Shown here in pieces: positions 9,365 to 60,984 of a stretch of 64,000 nucleotides of DNA; the stretch's first letter is position 1; each line of letters starts with the position of its first letter. The notes beneath the pieces are model-generated. The model searched no databases. It was not told where the DNA came from and was given only the letters and a program-made list of their open reading frames with translations. The position numbers were made by a program, and so were the translations under genes. The DNA is from Sphaerodactylus townsendi (taxonomy: Eukaryota): NCBI RefSeq assembly GCF_021028975.2, contig NC_059428.1, positions 45,322,001-45,386,000 on the forward strand, written 5' to 3'.

Positions 9365-9677
9365 AAGAGGTAAAGCTACAAGGGGGCCAGGGGTGTGTGC
9401 GTTGCACTGGATGCGCGCCTGGGGGTGCAAAAATTTGTGGTTTTTTGTGGTTTTTGGTTTTTTGTATTTTTGTGGGTTTTGTATTTTTAGTGTTTTTCCC
9501 CAGTTTTTGGCCTGCAGGGCCAAAGAGGTAAAGCTACAAGGGGGCCAGGGGTGTGTGCGTTGCACTGGATGCACGCCTGGGGGTGCAAAGATTTGTGGGT
9601 TTTTGTGGTTTTTGGTTTTTTGTATTTTTGTGGGTTTTGTATTTTTAGTGTTTTTCCCCAGTTTTTGGCCTGCAGGG
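9365..9677 (+). repeat. Tandem duplication of an approximately 158-bp unit
   Basis: Two near-identical units starting aagaggtaaagctacaagggggccagggg, inside a repeat-like region. Confidence 0.9.
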
Positions 9678-12650: not shown

Positions 12651-12815
12651 TATTGTCGAAGGCTTTCACGGGCTGGATTCAACTGGTTGTGGTGGGTTTT
12701 CCGGGCTTCTCTCTGTGATACACCTCTGAAGATGCCAGCCACAGATGCAGGCGAAACATTAGGAACAAGATCTACCAGACCACGGCCACACAGCCCAAAA
12801 AACCCACCACAAACA
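12651..12815. mobile_element. Penelope pLTR remnant in inverted arrangement, hammerhead motif at 12723-12763 (+)
   Basis: cct-CTGAAGA-t-gcc...ggc-GAAA-catt-agg, with mutually complementary outer arms. Confidence 0.85.
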
Positions 12816-28844: not shown

Positions 28845-28962
28845 TCATGACATTTCATCTCCACTTCCTTCTGAAAATGATTCTAGGTAATCTTTGCATG
28901 CATGTTCTTCCACATAAGTTTCTCTCGCTGTCTCTTCAATATAGTTGAGCTTTTTGGAAACC
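28845..28962 (-). CDS. HJURP: HJURP last coding exon (GVSKKLNYIEE...GDEMS*)
   Basis: Acceptor tttctAG and an open frame to TGA at 28847-28845. A second frame is also open, so the frame choice is inferred. Confidence 0.65.
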
Positions 28963-29829: not shown

Positions 29830-30759
29830 ATCTGAGTAAATCAGGTCTTCAATAGTCCCAAGCCATGTGTTTTGGAAAAAAATGTTAATAATTGAGCAAT
29901 CACTAATACTAGTTGCTAGAATGCAATAGCAGGGAAAGGCTGACTTCGTGGAAGTATTTAGATTGCCACTTTGGGAAACAAGATGCTGGATTGTGTGATA
30001 CAGGAAGGCTGATGACTATTTGGCATCAGTTTGATGGTCTCCCCTATTTCCTGCTTTGAAACCAACCTCAAGCTGCCGTGAAGAAAGTCTCAAATAAGGA
30101 GAAGCAACATATAGTCATAAAGGGAAGATATCAGTCCATCTTGGACAAATGTTAACACGCACAACATTCAGATATCAAGAAAAATTGCTGTTGGAATACC
30201 AAGGTATTTATTCAAAATTTGCATGTTAAGATCACCACACTCCCCAAAACAAGCACCTCCTATCCTCACACTGATTTCTACTTCTTTGTTAATGACTCAT
30301 GGCAAACAAACGAACATTATTGAAGTTGAGAGCCAAATTCAGCGATAACACCTCCTTCTGTATGACACTATTACCATAAGAACATAAGAACAAGCCTGCT
30401 GGATCAGACCATCTAGTCCAGCTCTCTGCTACTCGCAGTGGCCCACCAGATGCTTTTGGGAGCTCACATGCAGGATGTGAAAGCAATGGCTCATCCAGCT
30501 TCTTACAGAATGCTGAGTACTTTAACATGTTCACATATCATTTTCATCATGAAACAAGTTTCTTCATTATACTTCCACACGCTCACCCTACTTACCTTCC
30601 CTACCATCTTTTCTACTTTCCACTACTGTGAGACGCTTGGAGAATTTGCCTTGAACTTTCTCCAACATAATGCTTCTACCCAACAACATAAATTTATTCC
30701 TCCTCCTCTACAACAGAAAGCATCAAATGGATTCTAAAATATATTTAGATGTCACTTAC

Positions 30760-30847
30760 CCTCTTGAACAGTTCTGCATTCTTTTGAGAGAATCACAATT
30801 ATGCAACAACTTGGGAATGTATTCATAGTTATCTCCACTTCCAGATT
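30760..30847 (-). CDS. HJURP: HJURP penultimate exon (SGSGDNYEYIPKLLHNCDSLKRMQNCSR)
   Basis: Acceptor cacacAG and donor AGG|GTAAGT, phase 1 to 2. The reading frame is inferred. Confidence 0.7.
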
Positions 30848-32312
30848 CTGTGTGAATAAAAAACTAAGGATTTCAAATGCAATTCCGGTTTGTTCAAAAT
30901 GTTGCAGCCAAGCTACTGTCAACTACTGGATACAAAGACTGTATGTACCCCATACTGCACAATCTGCACAGGCTTCCTACCTATTTCTGGACATAATTCA
31001 TAGTGCTGGTTCTTATCTTCAAGGCCCTAAACAGTTTATGGCTAGATTACGTTATAGATCACCTTCTTCCATACCATCCACACACCAATTAAGATCTTCC
31101 TCACAAGTTCAGCTGAGCATCTGCTTCCAGAGGTGAAGGTACGTGAATCCACTTCCTTCAGAGAGGGCAGCCAGGGTTTTTCAGTGGTAACATTTCACCT
31201 GTGGAACTTCCCCTCTGAAGCTTTCCTGGCCCTTGCAATACTCTCTTTTGGGCATCAGACCAAAACATTGCTTTTTAAGGAGGGGATTCAACCTTTCAAA
31301 CAGTTTTTACACTCTGCTTCTAGCCTGAGGGCCATTTTGCATGGATATATTTAGGCTGCTAAATGTTCTGTGCTGTGTTCATGCTTCAATTGGATTCACT
31401 GACAGGGCTTCTAATGGTTTGTTAATTTTAATTATTGTTATGATTTTTTTTCATATTTGCAAACAGCCTGAAGCAGATCTTAAGAGAGATACCATATACA
31501 TTTTCAAAATTATGGATATGAGAGACAACAAAAAATGCACAGAGAACTAATGTTGGCCAGCTTAAGGTCTCTATAAACAGGATGGCTTAATACCAGTTTA
31601 ACATGAAATCTTACAAATCCATCTTCAAATTTAAACTTAATTTAAACTGGATCCATGACCCTCTGAACAAATATTACACAATTATTTTGCATAAAGTAAT
31701 TACAGAATTGCTTTACATAAAAACAAACTATGAGTAAAAAGACTGATTTTTAAAAATGAAGAATTACAAGCATGGCACGATAAATCATGCATTGTTAGGT
31801 AAAATTCTGAATATTACTGACTGTTGTATCTTAAGGGCTAGTAACGCAAAAGTCTAGCATCCAAAATAAATGTAGTCAAGTCTAATCAGTCAAGCACAGT
31901 CCCTAAGTGATCTCAATGCTAAATGATCTTTGGGGAGTTCGTTCTCCACAGGATCATTTAGCACCAAGATCCCTTAGGTACTACCTATGGCTTAGACAGA
32001 CTACAGTTATTTTTCTGTTAACCAAAACGCATGGCTATACAAGTAACATGCAAATAATTGTTTTGTAAACAACTATTTTGTACTGGCAGGGAAACAAAGA
32101 AACAAGCTCAACCCTAACTCAGTGTATAGTATTCACAACATTTAAGTTACACAAATAAAACCAGCCACGTATTCATTATACACCTTATGGTAATTTGGTT
32201 GGTTTTGTGAATAACAAATGTTTTGTAAACAGCTTCAATACACAATAACTTCATATAGCTAGGACTGTGCTTTTTAACAGGACTTGTATATTGCAGCAAT
32301 CTGTTTAGTTCA

Positions 32313-33547
32313 AACTTTTTGAAAGAACAAGTTGTTGAGAAATGAAAGTGACCTAAACAAACACTGGTGAATATGTATTTTCAGAAACTGTAAGTTTTGT
32401 TTGAGCCAAACAATTAACCAGCTCCCTGTCTTTTTTGTTGGGCTGACTAATTCAACATAGTGAATTAAATCAAAACATTTTTATTTTCAGCATGAACACA
32501 GTAGGTTTTCAAAGATGACAACAGTAATCCAATTTATGGCCATTTTGCTCAAAAGATAAAACTTCAGTACTGATTCATAAACAATACTTACTGTTTGGGC
32601 ATTGGTCCAAAAGCACTGGGTCAAATACCATACTAGAATGGCAAGAAGGATATAACTTCCTATGAAATTGCTGCGATATATTTAAAAGAAGAGATTACTT
32701 GCACGTGTGTTCGTTCCCATATCAAATAGAAATTGTTTCTAGTTTTTTTTAACCTGGTTTTGTGCCAAGGGATAACTATGAACAAGAGTGAAAGAGGGAG
32801 TAAAAAGGAAATATTTTGCCAAGAAAGGTATAAAGTTTGTGTTCTTGTGTGGCTTTAGTGGAAGCCCTTTTGAGTATATATTCATAGGATGACATTGTAT
32901 TCATGGTCTCTGGGTTTGGGGGTATTTGAATTTGCCTTATCCTAAGTGTTGGAAGGAAAAGGCAGGAGGGGAGGCGGACCAGTACCAGTACCATACAGGT
33001 AAAAATTCTGTAGTGAGACAGTGTGGCAGCTAGGTTAAATAAAATATTTTTAGTAGTCATCGTTGTTGATTTCCTTTCAAACTTCAGATGATCAAATGAA
33101 CATCTTAATTATATCCTATTTCAGGGCTACTTTTAAGATGTATCTGTAACCATGAAAGTAACATTGAACTCTATAAATGGAGGCTATGAGACATATCTCC
33201 AAGAAAAATCTGTATTTTTGACTTCTGCTACTAATTAATTACTTAAATATATTAACTTATGCAAAAGTGAAAAGGTTTTCTCTAATAATGCCTGAGGCAT
33301 TAAACAAGATTTTATTTATTTATGTATTTATATTTATTAATTTTGTATACCGCCCACCCACGAAGGGCTCTGGGCAGTTAACATCATATAGATAGAGAAC
33401 TATGTTGAATTAGTCAGCCCGACTAAAAAGACAGGGAGCTGGTTAAATGTTTGGCTCAAACAAAACTTACAGTTTCTGAAAATACAAATTCAACAGTGTT
33501 TGTTTAGGTCACTTTCATTTCTCAACAACTTGTTCTTTCAAAAAGTT
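32313..33547. repeat. 149-bp inverted repeat pair (32313-32461 and 33399-33547)
   Basis: The arms are reverse complements with about 5 mismatches counted by eye. Confidence 0.95.
32592..32775 (-). other. HJURP: Candidate HJURP cassette exon (184 nt) that is frame-disrupting as written
   Basis: Long polypyrimidine acceptor and GTAAGT donor. Entered in phase 1 it reaches TAG at 32662-32660. The flanking exons are phase-compatible without it. Confidence 0.5.
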
Positions 33548-34182
33548 CAAATTCTGTTGAAAAATTCAAACTGAATATTCAGGCTCAGGTTAAAGCACTT
33601 TTTATTTATTTACTATATTTACAATCTGCCTTTCTTAGAGACTTAAAGCAAATTATATCAATTTACCCTGTGCAATCAATGGGAGACGACATCTAATAAG
33701 TAGTCTACAAGGATTTTAGAATCTTTTCAAATATAAAATATATGGACCATGCTACTTCAAAACTACTAAAGATGGAAAATATTAATAAAAACTATTTAAT
33801 TTAGTTTTTCCAGGTTCACTAAATCAATAAAAGGAAAATATTCTGAAATCTTACTGGCCCTCTGTTCAAATCTAGTTTTTCCAAAAGTATGCATCATGTA
33901 CCAGATGATCTAAACCAACAAACAAAAATCTGAATTAGTGACTCTGGAAAAAAGCAGAATACACATTCATAGCTTTTGCCCTAGGAAATAATTTGATGTT
34001 ATCATGTTAACCTTCCTCTGAAATGTATCCAAAATACTTTAAAACTAAAGCCATTCAGATATGACTGGGTTAAGATGACAGAAAAATAATATATATTCTG
34101 TCAAAAACACAGAGGACCATACTTGTTTCATAGAGGATACTCATTGAGCATCAAAAAATAAATATAATCTTGGAAAACCTAC

Positions 34183-34246
34183 CACGTATGTAAGTGCTTG
34201 GCCCGACCAGAAAGGTGCGATTTAAAGAAACACAGAATCCAGAATC
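34183..34246 (-). CDS. HJURP: HJURP exon (DSGFCVSLNRTFLVGPSTYIR)
   Basis: Acceptor ttttcAG and donor GTG|GTAGGT, phase 0 to 1. Confidence 0.7.
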
Positions 34247-34684: not shown

Positions 34685-36210
34685 CAGTTTTTTTGAAGAC
34701 CAATTGCTTGAGTTAGGAGAGTGCAGTGTGTGAGTCATACCAGATTTATCAAGGTTAATATTCCCCCAGTCTGGTGGTTTCTGGTGTACTCTAGAAGCAA
34801 AGCTTTCGGATATATTTTTTAGTCTTTTTACAGGTGATGACAGAAAATCTTCACTAGAGAAATTTGCTGTTCTTTTAGTTCTGGCAACTGAAGGTAGAGT
34901 TCTAACAGGAGAATTGACTAGGGCATTTACAGTGTGAGACACTTGCACACCTTCATATTTCTTTAATCTTGCAGCTCTTAGAAATGTAGGGATATTTGGA
35001 AATCCTTCTGAATGTGACTTCACATGCATATTTCCAGACTGGCTTTCTTTCTGATGAAACCGCATCCAGTCCGGTTTCAAAAGCTTGTTACCAGACTGTG
35101 TTGGGCTCGGGCACACGTTTGACAACTTAAATGATTTCTGAAACTGTGGGCAACACAGTTCTTTGTACATCTTTTCAAAGGCATCTTCAGATTTCTGCTG
35201 AACTTTGATACGATTATGGTTAACGAGAAACTGTGAAAAAGACCGACTTCGCCGCAGTGAACTAGCTGTAGGGAAAAATTTAATCTCATGATTTTTGAAT
35301 AGCCTACATGGGGATTTCACTGGAGAAGATTTGTCTGCTTGCAAATATGGATTCATGTTACTATTCACATAGAAGTTTAAATATGATGGAGCTTTGACTT
35401 GCATGATCCTTCCTACCCCGCTCTCATCTCTTTCTGTCAGATCAAATGTTGCTCCAGAATCATTCGGGCAACCGGTAGAAAGCTCTTCAAAAGGCTGACT
35501 CTTTCTTGCATAGTCTGAAGATGAAGGTATCCAAGATGAACTTTCAAGATTAAATATTTTTGTTTTAGAAAAATTGTTAGGAAAAATGATAGCCCCAATA
35601 CCATTCTGTCCAACTCTCTCAACAGAGGAATAATCTTCAATATCAGAAGAGTCCATCTCTATTTTATCTGCTTTATGGTATGCAGGAGATGTCACTCTAG
35701 ATTCAGTGAGAAATGTATGCTGCTTTTGACTGTTGCCATATCCCAAAAGTCTACTACTTCCACTATTCTCCATAGGCAATTTACACTTTTCATTTTCTTT
35801 TCTAATTGCTAGGACAGAATTGTGTTTTAATGGCCCAGATTTCCTCACTCTTTCAGTAGCTGCGTTAAACTTGGTTTTCTTCGGTTGCCAATATCCATAT
35901 TCATACCGTTTGCTCTGTGAACGGAAAGAAGTTTTATGGGGAATTTTATTCATAAGTCTGCTAAATGTCTTAACCATTTCTGGATACAAGTCGGCTATTG
36001 TAATATTATTCCAAGAACAATGCTGATCTGCTGACTCATAAGTTTCCAAAAAGCTACTATAGTCCGTTTTTCCATTCTCCCCAAGGGACAGATGTCCAAA
36101 TGCAGTCATTTCATCTGGTGACCCGTTAGTAATACAGCTGCCTAACTGGAGAGACGTAGATTCGGAATGTCCATTTTGTCCTTGCTTTCTTGGGACCACA
36201 GCATGCTGAC
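34685..36210 (-). CDS. HJURP: HJURP large central exon (about 508 codons) with the mid-domain and a C-terminal repeat-like helix
   Basis: Core of the 608-aa ORF. NITIADLYPEMVKTFSRLM resembles human VTISDLYAGMLHSMSRLL, and EDAFEKMYKELC resembles the HJURP C-terminal repeat. Acceptor tggtAG|GTCAG and donor CTG|GTATGT. Confidence 0.93.
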
Positions 36211-38492: not shown

Positions 38493-38839
38493 TGGTTCTG
38501 GTGGGTTTTCTGGGCTGTGTGGCTGTGGTCTGGTGGATTTTGTTCCTAACATTTCGCCTGCATCTGTGGCTGGCATCTTCAGAGGGAAAGTTTAGTGTGG
38601 TATATTGTCCAGGTCCCAGGGTGGGGAACCAATTATGGGACATGGACAATATACCACTCTAAACTTTCCCTTCTCACTTAGACACAGTGTGAAACAGACT
38701 TTTCTCTGTGATACACCTCTGAATATGCCAGCCACAGACGCAGGCGAAACGTTAGGAACAAAATCCACCAGACCACGGCCACACAGCCTGGAAAACCCAC
38801 CAGAACCAGTTGAATCCGGCCATGAAAGCCTTCGACAAT
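38493..38839. mobile_element. Penelope fold-back cassette with hammerhead motifs on both strands
   Basis: 38493-38585 is complementary to about 38716-38808, and 38584-38618 to 38636-38670. Motifs at 38545-38585 (-) and 38716-38756 (+). Confidence 0.9.
38545..38585 (-). ncRNA. Minimal type I hammerhead ribozyme motif with intact catalytic core
   Basis: Minus strand reads CCU-CUGAAGA-U-GCCAGCCACAGAUGCAGGC-GAAA-UGUU-AGG. Stem I is CCU/AGG, stem II is GCC/GGC, and stem III is loopless and quasi-palindromic (dimer type). Activity is untested. Confidence 0.65.
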
Positions 38840-39100
38840 TCACTAACATTTGTCCGACTTTGGGATTGAAGAGTTCTAATTATTTTTTTTTCATCATTGC
38901 AAAAATGTATGTGAAGGCATAAGGAATATGAGAAGCTCGGGAATAATGAACATATGAGCTTCCACAAAGCAAAGGAACTAAGCCTTGCCATATTAAGAAT
39001 ATGTTCTGAAGGAAAAATGAGGGCAAAAAACACCCCCTACCCACAGTGTACTGACAAGCAAAAAGCAACAGTCGCTGTTAACTATTCTTTACACTTTAAT

Positions 39101-39262
39101 GTATTGTCGAAGGCTTTCACGGCCGGATTCAACTGGTTGTGGTGGGTTTTCCGTGCTATGTGGCCGTGGTCTGGTGGATCTTGTTCCTAACACTTCGCCT
39201 GCATCTGTGGCTGGCATCTTCAGAGGTGTATCACAGAGAAAAGTCTGTTTCACAATCTGTCT
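39101..39262 (-). mobile_element. Penelope solo pLTR with hammerhead motif at 39186-39226 (-)
   Basis: Reverse complement of the pLTR seen at 38690-38839. The core GAAA is changed to GAAG. Confidence 0.85.
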
Positions 39263-39591
39263 AGTGATTCTTTACACTTGTTTGAATTCTGTGACTAATT
39301 AAATTGGGTTGCACATTGAACTCTTGTATTCTGGATTTCTGTCCTACTTAGTTTGGAGGATTCTAAACAGATACTTTCCTGCTTTTATACAAACCATTTA
39401 TTAATCAGCGACAAACAGGAACTTACCTAGAATACTCATCAGTCTGGTAATATTTAAGCCCAGCCTACAAGAAATACAGCCAGCTACCCAATTTGAAAGT
39501 ATCTGAGTTCACCAGATTTTGTAATAAGATGAGCCATTAACTTCTCTTGTAAGGACTTCAGCAGTAAAATGTGAATTGCCATGATGCTCAC

Positions 39592-57361: not shown

Positions 57362-60300
57362 TTGTGGCAGGAATCCTAGTTCATTTATCTTCCCAGTGTA
57401 GCGGACCTCTGGTGTCTCGGCATGGAGAGGTTGAATATTCCTGAACCTGTGGAAGGTGCGGTAGCCCCCAAAGAGGGCTCCGAGCTTTCCCTTATGGATT
57501 TGGAGGAACCGGCGGCGGAATCGGGTCTCATTGGTAACTCTTTCCCGGCCCTCGTATCAACACGAAGTCTTCCCTTACTCCGTTGGGACGAGGGATGAGG
57601 AAAGCGATCATGTGGACTTGCATGAGTCGTTTGGGCTTGTCTATGGATCGGCCTGTGGATCGGATACCTACCACGTTTCCGTGTGGTTACAAACCTCAGA
57701 TGCAACCTGTCGCGGAGGAGATGGGGCCTGACCACTTTTCATCGCGCGTAAACTCCAGGAGTCCACGTTGAACGATTCCTGGACTCAGATTTTGATGATG
57801 CTCCCAAGAATCCACCGTGGCATAGCACTGGGGCCCGCCCTAAGACCACCGTTAAAAGCCTGGACTATATCGGATTGGGAGGGTATCCGCATTACCAGCT
57901 TCCGATCGACCCCCCCAGATCCCGGATCAGCAAGCTGCATGAGGCGCCGATGGAGCCGCCCGGTGGACTGTAGTGCTGCATTCCGATGAAGAGGAATCCC
58001 GAAAGCCTGCTGCCTTCCCATCCGACCTATTTCCCTCCCGCCAAAGAGCCAATATGGGATGGTAATGACTGCAAGATGCCCAGGAAGCATGGGCCCGTGA
58101 ACGCCAGCCATGGAAGAGGAATGGAGCAGCTGCAGCAAGAGCTGAAAACTCTCGCAAAAGGACCCGGGAATAAAGCAGCGAAAGAAATCCAACCTGCACT
58201 GGACCGCGGCAAGATTTTGCAACGGCAATATATATGCAGAATCTATCGGTCCATGATAAGGTCCTGGAACACTCCAAACTGGACTTTAGAGTTGCCAACG
58301 CCAGCTGCGCATAGCTGGCGCGAAAGTGAACTAACTGCAGCTATTCAACGAGATGAACTGGCCAAACTGGAACGAGAGAAAGCAGCTCTTGCATCGCATC
58401 TAAGATGTCCTTGACTCGCAAGGAAGAGACTTAGCAGCCTTTGAAAAGGAGCTGAAGAAGCAGGGACAAGATGCCCCAAGCTGGAGTCCTCGCCGTTACT
58501 GGTACAATAGCCAACGCCAGAGAACGGCGCTTCTGGGTCCCCATACTCGCTGTGATTCGCCACCTTCCAAAGACGCGTGCTCCACTCAGAGCACCAGCGG
58601 CGCCGGGCGTCTGTGCTCTAGCACCTCCACTGATTCCGGCTCTGCGCCACCAATCCTGCGCAACCGGCCCCAGCTGGCGCCAGGGCCGGAGAGAGGAGAA
58701 GCATATTACAGACCTCCAATACCTGCCTCGCTTCGATGTGGGGACCGCTTCCAAACTCCCCTACTTCATCCTGCAACTCGATGCCCACATGGAGGACCTA
58801 TGACGATCTGTACCGGGTCTGAACGCCAAAATACGGGACATCGGGTTCCGTCTTGGATGGAGCGGCAGCCGACTGGTTTGTGACTCTTTTGACTGCAAGG
58901 GGAGGATACTCGCACGGTGCCTGCCTTCCAAGTTCTTAAGGGCTCGCTTCAAGATCCGGGTGCTGGAAAATGAAGCCATCCGCACCATCAAATCTATTCA
59001 GCAAGGCAACGCGCTCCTTTGCGAGTTTTGCCCGTGAATTTCGTAAAGCGTGACTGCCTCGAACTCTCCTGAGTGGCCTGAGCGCATGAAATGTGAATAC
59101 TTCGCAGGATGCCGTCGACGGCAAACTGCGAGGAACGGTGTTCCTTATTCCGGATCCTAATGCACTATTGCTGAATGGATCGAATTAGGATCTCAAGTGG
59201 CGTCGCCTCGTTTGGATTACACTCGCGGGGGGCCCATACCCAAAACCGCCGCTACTGACTCACCGCTCGACTGCATAAGCCAAGCTCCAGCAGCTCTGAC
59301 GGAAACCACCTCCGAGCGCCCGTCGCCGCTTGGGATTGTGTCTTTACCAAGGAGGACCGGGTCATCTAGCTGCCAACTGCCCGAAACAGAAGCACCGCCC
59401 GCTGCGCCAGCACTTAATCTGCTACAAGCCACCACGTGAACTGGCCGCCAACGGGGGCCTTCGCTCTAAAGGCGTTAGCCACTGGCTACACTCCAGAAGA
59501 AGCAGCGTTTGCCTCTTCAGCCCCATGGATATGGGTTCGATTTCAGATCGGTGGAGTGAAGGCAGCGCTCCCATTACGATTCAAGCGCATTCTGGCCAAC
59601 CCTTCGCTTAAGCACTCGTGATTATAGCCTCAGCCCTTGTAGATTCTGGGTGCTCCCATTTGCTTAAATCGCGGTCCCAAGTGGCGGAGGAACTTTGGAC
59701 TAGACCGAGTCCCCTAGCTAAGCCCATACCGTTCACTCCAAAATGGGCGCAGCCCTCTCAATGGCGAAGGACCGGCCAGTTCAAAACGTGCATAAACCGT
59801 TCTCCGCTTCGCGCTTCGACCATTGGGAGAAAATTAGTTTTATTCTGGCTCCAGTGGCCAAACACTCCATAGTCCTGGGCATGCCATGGTTGTTGCTGTA
59901 CCTAATCCAAAATTCATTTGGAAAGAAACGGATCTTAGAATTTACTGACCCTCCCGTGGAGAACACATGAATTGGGGAAACTCCCACTTAATGACATACA
60001 CCCCTGGCCCGTCCAGCGGGTTACGCAGCTCCAGTTGCTCGAATCTACCGGCATTCCACCGGCTTACCAAGATTTAGCCAGAGTATTTCCAGGAGCAAGA
60101 ATGCGATCAATTGCCACTCCCATAGAGACACTGACTGCAAATGTGATTACAGCCAGGGCCTCAACTGCCTAAGGGTAGAATTTACGCATGAGTCCCAATG
60201 AGGAGAAGGAACTTCGTGCCTTCTTAGACAAGAACCTTGCTTTCAGCTGGGTTCATCTGACGAAGCTACTAAAACATAATGCATGCTGCTCCTGTATTAT

Positions 60301-60984
60301 TTTGTTAAAAAAAGGACGGATCTTTAAAGGCTCTGTAACACGGATTACCGAGGACTCAATGCGGTTCTTGTCCAATAAATACCCTTTGCCTTTAAGCAAG
60401 GACCTTTTAGTATGCATTGGGCAAAAGGACTTATTTTACTAAGTTGGACTTAAAGAAGCTTACTACAGAGTCAGGATCAAGGAAGGCTATGAACATTTGA
60501 CTGCATTTAACACAAAATTTGGACAGTAATGAATACTTAATAATGCCATTATTCATTAAGTAGCCCCCCGGAGCTTTATGGCCCCTATCAACGAAGTTCT
60601 ACAGGATTTATTATACAAGGGAGTAGTGGTGTGCTTAGATGATGTTTTAATTTATTCACAAACCATGGAGGAGCCTGAAGCCTTGCTTCGGGAAGTATTA
60701 CACCGCTTTCTCAACAACTCCCTCTTTGCAAACCTTTCTAAATGTTGTTTTCACCAATCCTCCATCGACTATTTGGGCTACCGGATCTCTTCCGAGGGGC
60801 TAAAAATGGATCCTGCTAAGATTGAAGCAGTCCTCCAATGGCCTGCCCCTACCAATCGGAAGGAACTCCAGTCTTTCCTAGGGTTTGCTAATTTCTATCG
60901 TGACTTTATACCCCAATTCGCTGAACTGACTCTCCCACTCACAGACCTCTACAGGGGGAGAAGTTTGTCTTAAGGGAGGCAGAG

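What the first reader, a model, noticed from the sequence alone, without database searches (positions are those of the whole stretch)
32313..33547. 149-bp inverted duplication brackets a skippable, stop-containing HJURP exon (candidate RNA-structure-controlled poison exon or circRNA)
Seen: two arms about 97% complementary flank a 184-nt segment (32775-32592) with a strong acceptor and a GTAAGT donor. Including it gives a TAG at 32662-32660, two junctions before the last exon. Skipping it keeps the frame (34183 phase 1 to 30847). Established: complementary intronic arms promote exon skipping and back-splicing, and such premature stops trigger NMD. Inference: the duplex may loop the exon out, either tuning HJURP dosage or having allowed an ancestral exon to decay. 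Caveat: deleting one base in the A4 run at 32684-32687 would give an open 183-nt exon (...QQFHRKLYPSCHSSMVFDPVLLDQCPN).
Basis: partly seen in the sequence, partly recalled or inferred. Interest (0 to 1): 0.75.

Follow-up and report, generated by a model that had tools for sequence, protein, structure and literature searches.

The report
Edited inverted duplication in gecko intron
A gecko HJURP intron carries a single-copy 149-base inverted duplication, likely left by a retrotransposon-triggered inversion, whose arms likely pair and get A-to-I edited in the RNA, but the supposed exon between them is skipped in the one RNA sample seen, so this is probably a by-product and not a regulatory switch.

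Summary
The inverted repeat is real: 144/149 complementary, single-copy in the genome, in an intron of HJURP of the gecko Sphaerodactylus townsendi. The poison-exon reading is not supported. An RNA run joins 34183 directly to 30847 (depth 188), and the 184-nt segment lies inside one unspliced contig at intron depth (8). No homologue of 82 encodes it, and a close relative carries neutral-rate changes plus a 2-nt insertion there. The A4 run is not an assembly error. New findings: both arms show clustered A-to-G changes on the transcript strand (10 and 7 sites), absent from DNA runs, so the duplex likely forms in vivo and is ADAR-edited. A 5'-truncated LINE tail starts exactly at the right arm's inner edge, the interior has reversed strand skew, and an 11-nt target-site-like repeat remains. 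These point to one LINE-triggered inversion with an inverted duplication. An outgroup keeps the right arm in place. Rare inclusion, or masking of an accidental cryptic exon by the duplex, is not excluded: contigs drop rare forms and NMD hides them. A new member of a known kind; interest modest.

The parts
33399..33547 (-). Right (upstream in transcript) arm, 149 nt; likely the ancestral copy
   Evidence: organism D joins its outer 63 nt to the upstream flank
32313..32461 (-). Left (downstream in transcript) arm, reverse complement of the right arm; likely the new copy
   Evidence: same contig break points in organism B; no such contig laid for organism D (weak)
33310..33398 (-). 5'-truncated 3' end of a non-LTR LINE with (TAAA)n-like tail; its 5' end abuts the right arm with a short imperfect overlap
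   Evidence: longer family copies carry reverse-transcriptase motifs upstream
32462..33309 (.). Single-copy interior of the loop; likely inverted relative to the ancestral intron
   Evidence: 32462-33290 is unique in the genome; reversed GC and keto skew; inversion inferred, not seen in an outgroup
32592..32775 (-). 184-nt pseudo-exon candidate, not seen spliced
32776..32815 (-). Pyrimidine tract and TAG acceptor of the candidate
32586..32591 (-). GTAAGT donor of the candidate
32660..32662 (-). In-frame TAG if the candidate were included
33468..33522 (-). Cluster of 10 listed A-to-G changes (T>C on +) in RNA run X4, all at A-U pairs of the duplex
32376..32402 (-). Cluster of 7 A-to-G changes among 15 A in 30 nt of the left arm in RNA run X4
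   Evidence: loose end, mapped
33301..33311 (+). Target-site-duplication-like 11-mer beside the LINE tail
   Evidence: 10 matches, 1 gap with its partner; 1.1% of random pairs score as high
32298..32307 (-). Partner of the target-site-like repeat, 5 nt beyond the left arm
34183..34246 (-). HJURP coding exon upstream (64 nt, ends phase 1)
30760..30847 (-). HJURP coding exon downstream (88 nt), joined directly to 34183
   Evidence: joint depth 187.8 in X4
34685..36210 (-). Large HJURP coding exon
   Evidence: joint depth 231.9
28845..28962 (-). Coding part of the last HJURP coding exon, with stop codon

Best explanation
This is a single-copy intronic inverted duplication, likely created when a LINE insertion inverted about 0.85 kb of the HJURP intron, whose arms likely pair in the pre-mRNA and are likely hyper-edited by ADAR, while the 184-nt segment between them is likely an unused pseudo-exon. 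Shown: the repeat, its uniqueness, the LINE 3' end at the arm edge, the direct 34183-30847 splice, and the clustered A-to-G changes in both arms in RNA contigs. Inferred, origin: reverse transcription began at the far end of the interior; the new cDNA end annealed about 0.9 kb away at the inner edge of the right arm; the interior plus LINE tail was flipped; 149 nt were copied; and the other end rejoined with a short target-site-like repeat. Inferred, effect: the hairpin (duplex about -237 kcal/mol) is an ordinary editing substrate that leaves with the intron, with little effect on HJURP output. On this reading the splice signals lay on the antisense strand until the inversion and were never an HJURP exon.
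For: Splicing: X4 joints 34183-30847 at depth 187.8 and 34684-34245 at 231.9; one contig 32425-33195 at depth 7.93 crosses both candidate sites; the neighbouring intron contig has depth 9.05. Homologues: 59 of 59 with both exons join directly; no tblastn hit on the segment from 82 proteins; phmmer best E 0.061 over 45 six-frame peptides; Pfam 0 families for 2 peptides. Neutral drift: organism B has 3 substitutions in 184 nt versus about 2% in the intron (Fisher p=1.0) plus a 2-nt insertion. Editing: 10 of 11 listed X4 changes at 33383-33612 are T>C, all inside the arm (10 of 32 A inside, 0 of 11 outside, p=0.043); 7 of 15 A read G in 30 nt of the left arm; DNA run X3 shows only the 3 arm-to-arm mismatches. 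Origin: LINE homology starts at the arm edge; GC skew -0.16 inside versus +0.12 and +0.08 in the flanks, p=0.0004, and p=0.33 once flipped; target-site-like 11-mer, p about 0.011; organism D keeps flank plus right arm contiguous; tail and arms look similar in age. [quoted passage not shown]
Against: The RNA evidence is one run, inferred to be RNA from its spliced joints, of unknown tissue, held as contigs that drop rare forms; NMD would deplete an inclusion isoform. The candidate is the strongest exon-like signal pair on either strand of the window by my crude rule (1 hit at 0.85), and organism B has no substitution in its tract, AG, donor or stop (all 10 substitutions of that contig are listed elsewhere; 7 gap letters are not shown). 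The edited right-arm contig has depth 3.35, no DNA of the same individual was available, and the expected depletion of G upstream of edited A was not seen (3 of 17 versus 7 of 30, p=0.73). The inversion was not seen directly in an outgroup. Skew tests treat bases as independent, coding-exon windows are also negative, and a 200-nt flank window at 31500 is as negative. The target-site-like repeat was spotted by eye before it was scored.
Confidence: 0.55

Rival explanations
1. Same inert, edited duplex and unused pseudo-exon, but a different origin: a replication or repair template switch copied the right arm into the left position without inverting the interior, and the LINE tail sits at the arm edge by coincidence or inserted separately.
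For: Needs no flip. Organism D shows only that the right arm is ancestral. An 8-nt direct repeat and a tiny hairpin at the outer arm ends (33551-33544 and 32314-32307) could mark a switch point.
Against: Does not explain the LINE 5' end falling exactly on the arm edge, the reversed skew, or the target-site-like repeat.
Confidence: 0.22
2. Self-masking rearrangement: the inversion moved strong splice signals onto the sense strand, creating a harmful cryptic poison exon, and the duplex made by the same event loops it out, so the duplex is now needed to keep HJURP splicing clean.
For: The duplex likely forms in vivo. The signals are strong and unsubstituted in organism B. Inclusion would give an NMD-type stop. 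Inverted intronic pairs are reported to promote loop-out skipping (PMC13019027, abstract).
Against: No sign of selection on the arms: 5 mismatches in 149 nt, compatible with drift (95% interval 1.1-7.7%). Heavy editing would weaken the duplex. Most pseudo-exons are ignored without any structure (own knowledge). The same abstract says exons with weak acceptors are the most prone, while this acceptor looks strong.
Confidence: 0.12
3. One reading: a regulated poison exon, or a decayed ancestral exon, controlled by the RNA duplex to tune HJURP dose, as in BRD2 and BRD3.
For: Geometry fits: complementary arms 623 and 130 nt from the splice sites, frameshifting length, stop 156 nt before the last junction. 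BRD3 exon 5b was itself cryptic and low-expressed (PMC10789245, passages).
Against: No inclusion in RNA contigs; no homologue has such an exon; neutral-rate change and an indel in organism B; the arms look younger than the split from organism D, whereas the BRD2 and BRD3 elements are described as conserved.
Confidence: 0.07
4. The arms drive back-splicing of the 184-nt segment into a circular RNA.
For: Short flanking inverted repeats suffice for circularization in minigenes (PMC4201285, start of abstract in listing); both splice signals lie inside the loop.
Against: No go-back joint at 32592-32775 among 15 of 16 joints shown, and a single contig crosses both sites; editing of flanking duplexes tends to oppose back-splicing (own knowledge). 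The library type of X4 is unknown, so circles could have been lost.
Confidence: 0.04

Closest known systems
Hyper-edited intronic inverted repeats, ADAR substrates (Porath et al. 2017, PMC5625713; passages read)
   Same: Long near-perfect reverse-oriented match within 2 kb; dense A-to-G clusters above 5% of the sequence; non-coding; lizard is among the species with abundant clusters.
   Different: Arms are a unique local duplication, not two copies of a dispersed repeat. The upstream-G depletion was not seen in 17 sites.
LINE-1 insertions with local inversion or inverted duplication (10.1101/2024.12.14.628481; section 9 read in full plus passages)
   Same: Truncated LINE 3' end at a junction, inversion of about 0.9 kb, TSD-like overlap kept; one described case inverts the primary RT end together with the insert.
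   Different: Those are somatic or experimental human L1 events. This one is germline, shared by at least two related organisms, from a squamate LINE with a (TAAA)n tail, and combines an inversion with a 149-nt duplication. The inversion is inferred.
Staggered-break inversions with inverted duplications (Ranz et al. 2007, PMC1885836; passages read)
   Same: Inverted copies of unique sequence at the two breakpoints, with only one breakpoint region duplicated, as in 12 of their cases.
   Different: Sub-kilobase and inside one intron, so both copies lie in one transcript and can pair; a LINE end sits at the junction.
RNA-structure-controlled poison exons of BRD2 (3b) and BRD3 (5b) (PMC10789245; passages read)
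   Same: Complementary intronic regions flanking a stop-introducing segment with GT/AG signals.
   Different: No conservation, no observed inclusion, no functional test; arms are long, young and edited.
Inverted Alu loop-out skipping (PMC13019027, abstract read; PMC13019944, listing only)
   Same: Young inverted pair able to loop out an enclosed segment.
   Different: There a real, pre-existing exon is skipped; here no real exon lies in the loop.

Membership tests
RNA-structure-controlled poison exon (BRD2/BRD3 type) | Complementary regions in both flanking introns able to form a stable duplex | tested here: met
   editing marks
RNA-structure-controlled poison exon (BRD2/BRD3 type) | Inclusion would introduce a premature stop well upstream of the last junction | tested here: met
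   TAG 156 nt before the last junction
RNA-structure-controlled poison exon (BRD2/BRD3 type) | The exon is actually spliced in at some level | tested here: inconclusive
   none seen in one RNA run held as contigs, which drop rare forms
RNA-structure-controlled poison exon (BRD2/BRD3 type) | Exon and complementary regions conserved above intron background | tested here: not met
   organism B: 3 of 184 substitutions plus a 2-nt insertion, same rate as intron; low power at 2% divergence; arm interrupted by a repeat in organism D
RNA-structure-controlled poison exon (BRD2/BRD3 type) | Breaking the pairing raises inclusion and compensatory changes restore it | not testable with these tools
   needs a minigene or antisense oligonucleotides
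Decayed ancestral HJURP coding exon | Homologues carry the extra coding segment at this junction | tested here: not met
   59 of 59 proteins with both flanking exons join directly; lizards, snakes, turtles, birds; no mammals in the set
ADAR hyper-edited inverted repeat | Dense A-to-G cluster on the transcribed strand, above 5% of the sequence | tested here: met
   10 listed in a 173-nt contig; 7 in 30 nt of the other arm
ADAR hyper-edited inverted repeat | Cluster lies in a long reverse-oriented match within 2 kb | tested here: met
   10 of 32 A inside versus 0 of 11 outside the arm
ADAR hyper-edited inverted repeat | Changes absent from DNA of the same individual | tested here: inconclusive
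   absent from DNA runs X1 and X3, which are other samples
ADAR hyper-edited inverted repeat | G depleted just upstream of edited A | tested here: inconclusive
   3 of 17 versus 7 of 30, p=0.73; small numbers
LINE-associated inversion with inverted duplication | 3' end of a non-LTR element at the rearrangement junction | tested here: met
LINE-associated inversion with inverted duplication | TSD-like overlap between tail-side and reciprocal ends | tested here: inconclusive
   10 matches and 1 gap; 1.1% of random pairs; noticed before scoring
LINE-associated inversion with inverted duplication | Outgroup shows the interior in the opposite orientation | not testable with these tools
   no outgroup assembly on hand; only reversed skew
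DNA transposon with long terminal inverted repeats (MITE, MULE, Foldback) | Dispersed family sharing the termini | tested here: not met
   arm found only twice, interior once; flank plus arm already contiguous in organism D
Circular RNA flanked by reverse-complementary matches | Back-splice junction | tested here: inconclusive
   none among 15 of 16 joints shown; library type unknown

The most novel reading that the evidence does not exclude
One LINE-triggered event flipped antisense splice signals into the HJURP sense strand, creating a poison exon, and at the same stroke built the RNA duplex that hides it: a self-masking rearrangement, now tunable by ADAR editing, and a ready route by which structure-controlled poison exons are born.
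Probability: 0.12. Interest if true: 0.7.

Novelty: new member of a known kind. Interest (0 to 1): 0.3.

Why it matters
As it stands it is a tidy natural case of two known processes meeting: a LINE-associated local rearrangement, described in human tumours and cell lines, apparently fixed in a lizard germline, and the resulting unique-sequence hairpin being edited in RNA. It shows that editing substrates can come from single-copy duplications, not only from paired transposon copies. It would matter more if the duplex proves necessary to hide the cryptic exon, because that would give a dated, testable origin for RNA-structure-controlled poison exons in a gene of centromere maintenance.

Tried and rejected
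Assembly frameshift at the A4 run: rejected. Ancestral coding exon: no support from tblastn, phmmer, alignment or Pfam. DNA transposon with long terminal repeats: rejected, no family. My own first model, that the right arm is the new copy carried in at the LINE 5' join: dropped after organism D showed flank and right arm contiguous. The run search listed no holder on record as RNA; X4 was recognised as RNA only from its spliced joints. Organism D gave no contig for the left arm or for the inner right arm; a hole proves nothing, so this is only weak. Run X8 looked mixed and patchy and was not used. Rfam at gathering thresholds: 0 matches in the window. A rough fold with edited A read as G changed the duplex by under 3 kcal/mol and is not informative about inosine. 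Earlier scan notes: nothing by place, words or sequence. Literature: 'HJURP' plus 'gecko' 0 papers; 'HJURP', 'nonsense-mediated', 'exon skipping' 3 papers, each with one mention, listing only; none of the 15 of 723 and 10 of 1,163 papers listed mention HJURP. PMC6050309 (passages) did not identify the tail's LINE clade; the label L2 is recalled from the SRLDYCN motif.

Full report
Locus. The large ORF at 36403-34541 (minus strand) matches at 100% a protein named Holliday junction recognition protein of Sphaerodactylus townsendi (63 hits among 5,619 candidates). The protein maps to 11 segments between 46774 and 28848.

The repeat is real. Arms 32313-32461 and 33399-33547 match at 144 of 149 positions, 937 nt apart. 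The genome search finds only these two copies, a 25-nt pattern with two mismatches also finds two, and 32462-33290 is found once; these searches can miss common or diverged words. The transcript strand folds the arms together in both the minimum-energy and centroid structures; the duplex alone is -236.8 kcal/mol. Organism B, about 2% diverged, breaks its contigs at the same three places as the window's own species (32342, 32383, 33518), which indicates it has both arms.

The candidate exon has the features claimed. It is 184 nt, has an 85% pyrimidine tract and a GTAAGT donor, and would stop at 32662-32660, 156 nt before the last junction. By a crude rule it is the only such pair at 0.85 on either strand of the window and one of 3 at 0.80; Markov resamples of the intron give one in 2.4% and 6.9% of 2,000 trials.

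It is not seen as an exon. Run X4 is not on record as RNA but shows spliced joints with canonical ends: 34183-30847 at depth 187.8 and 34684-34245 at 231.9. One contig, 32425-33195 at depth 7.93, crosses both candidate sites, and the next intron contig has depth 9.05, so low-depth branches do survive in this run. None of the 15 joints shown (of 16) touches the candidate. Contigs drop rare forms and NMD would deplete an inclusion isoform, so this sets no firm upper bound. Of 82 HJURP proteins, 80 were aligned (2 lacked the anchor); 59 carry both flanking exons and join them with 0 (58) or 1 (1) extra residue; 21 are truncated or use other ends; the longest span over the two exons is 54 residues against 50 here. 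Many rows are isoforms of one species and none is a mammal. tblastn of all 82 gave no hit on the segment, phmmer of 45 six-frame peptides gave best E 0.061, and Pfam gave nothing for the two open halves. Organism B has 3 substitutions and a 2-nt insertion in the segment, the intron rate; its tract, AG, donor and stop are unsubstituted, which at 2% divergence says little. The A4 run is the same in DNA run X1 and RNA run X4.

The duplex likely forms in vivo. In X4, 10 of 11 listed changes at 33383-33612 are T>C on the plus strand, that is A-to-G on the transcript; they lie at 33468-33522 in one contig of depth 3.35 that has 13 differences in all. A second contig, depth 9.05, from the left arm reads G at 7 of 15 A in 30 nt. 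DNA run X3 shows only the three arm-to-arm mismatches. All 10 right-arm sites are A-U pairs in the duplex; 10 of 32 A inside the arm are changed against 0 of 11 just outside, p=0.043. This passes the 5% rule and the reverse-match criterion of Porath et al. (PMC5625713, passages). Against: no DNA of the same individual, low depth, and no upstream-G depletion (3 of 17 versus 7 of 30).

Origin. The first 88 nt of the interior match a dispersed repeat (39 other places among 40 scored of 1,003 candidates). The match begins at the arm's inner edge with a short imperfect overlap, ends in a (TAAA)n-like tail, and longer copies carry reverse-transcriptase motifs 0.65-1.1 kb upstream, so it is a 5'-truncated LINE; the clade label L2 is recalled. 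I first took the right arm as the new copy. Organism D, about 10% diverged, refuted that: one contig joins the upstream flank to the outer 63 nt of the right arm, carries the left-arm allele at 33493, and is then cut by another repeat; no left-arm contig was laid (weak at depth 9). With the right arm ancestral, the simplest account of a LINE end at its inner edge is an inversion of interior plus tail with a staggered second break. Two checks agree. The interior's GC skew is -0.16 against +0.12 and +0.08 in the flanks (p=0.0004; p=0.33 when flipped), and the two 848-nt windows over it have the lowest keto skew of 39 along the gene. An 11-nt target-site-like repeat links the tail side (33301-33311, plus) to the start of the downstream flank (32307-32298, minus), matched by 1.1% of random pairs. 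Both checks are soft: bases are not independent, exon windows and one flank window are also negative, and the 11-mer was seen by eye first. The tail differs from the commonest letter of 19 copies at 5 of 73 columns, two of them shared by several copies, in line with the arms' 5 of 149 (interval 1.1-7.7%).

Comparison with what is known. It works like the L1 insertions with local inversion or inverted duplication in 10.1101/2024.12.14.628481 (section 9 read), which include a 917-bp inversion and a case inverted on the primary RT end with a 15-bp overlap, and like staggered-break inversions (PMC1885836, passages). As RNA it works like any hyper-edited intronic inverted repeat. It resembles the BRD2 and BRD3 poison exons in layout (PMC10789245, passages) but fails their conservation test and shows no inclusion, so it should not be filed there. 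I found nothing in print on this locus (the library lacks most subscription papers, and no supplements were read).

Verdict. Observation largely right, interpretation partly right. Most likely (0.55) a LINE-associated inversion-duplication giving an edited but inert intronic hairpin around an unused pseudo-exon; 0.22 the same with a template-switch origin; 0.12 a self-masking rearrangement in which the duplex hides a cryptic poison exon; 0.07 a regulated poison exon; 0.04 a circular RNA source. New member of a known kind; interest 0.3.

Noticed in passing
window 38674-38846 and 39096-39267: Second inverted pair in an HJURP intron, 173 nt at 91%, from a dispersed repeat that looks Penelope-like (label recalled); another likely dsRNA and editing substrate in the same pre-mRNA.
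   Followed up: no
window 38582-38552 (minus) and 12726-12756 (plus): Hammerhead-like core motif (recalled pattern) inside those repeat copies; Rfam finds nothing at gathering score.
   Followed up: partly
window 33610-33828: Organism D lacks this stretch of about 220 nt: its contig jumps from 33609 to sequence matching 33829. The part 33703-33600 is another dispersed repeat end (11 other places among 12 scored).
   Followed up: partly
window 33485: In organism D the right arm is interrupted by the end of a repeat also present in the window at about 39120 and 12669.
   Followed up: partly
window 33551-33544 and 32314-32307 (minus): An 8-nt direct repeat overlaps the outer ends of both arms, and the left end forms a tiny hairpin; possibly templated filler from the rejoining step.
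   Followed up: no
window 33474-33464 (minus): The right arm itself holds a second GTAAGT donor-like site just after an AG, next to or overlapping edited positions 33468 and 33474.
   Followed up: no
window 30375-30490: Very high-copy short interspersed repeat in the last coding intron of HJURP, seen as extreme contig depth in all four runs.
   Followed up: no
window 57785-60973: Several ORF fragments, including a reverse-transcriptase-like one at 60560-60973, suggest a decayed LTR retrotransposon (label from recall).
   Followed up: no
P0013, P0035-P0040: Some lizard and turtle HJURP models end in a different reading (G-x-PENS...) after the 64-nt exon, which looks like an alternative 3' end unrelated to the candidate segment.
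   Followed up: no
P0008: A Podarcis muralis HJURP-like protein is labelled guanylyl cyclase-activating protein 3 by its source, yet shows only a weak Scm3 match and no EF-hand family; likely a naming artefact.
   Followed up: partly
window 9365-9677: Two tandem copies of a 158-nt unit at 98%.
   Followed up: no
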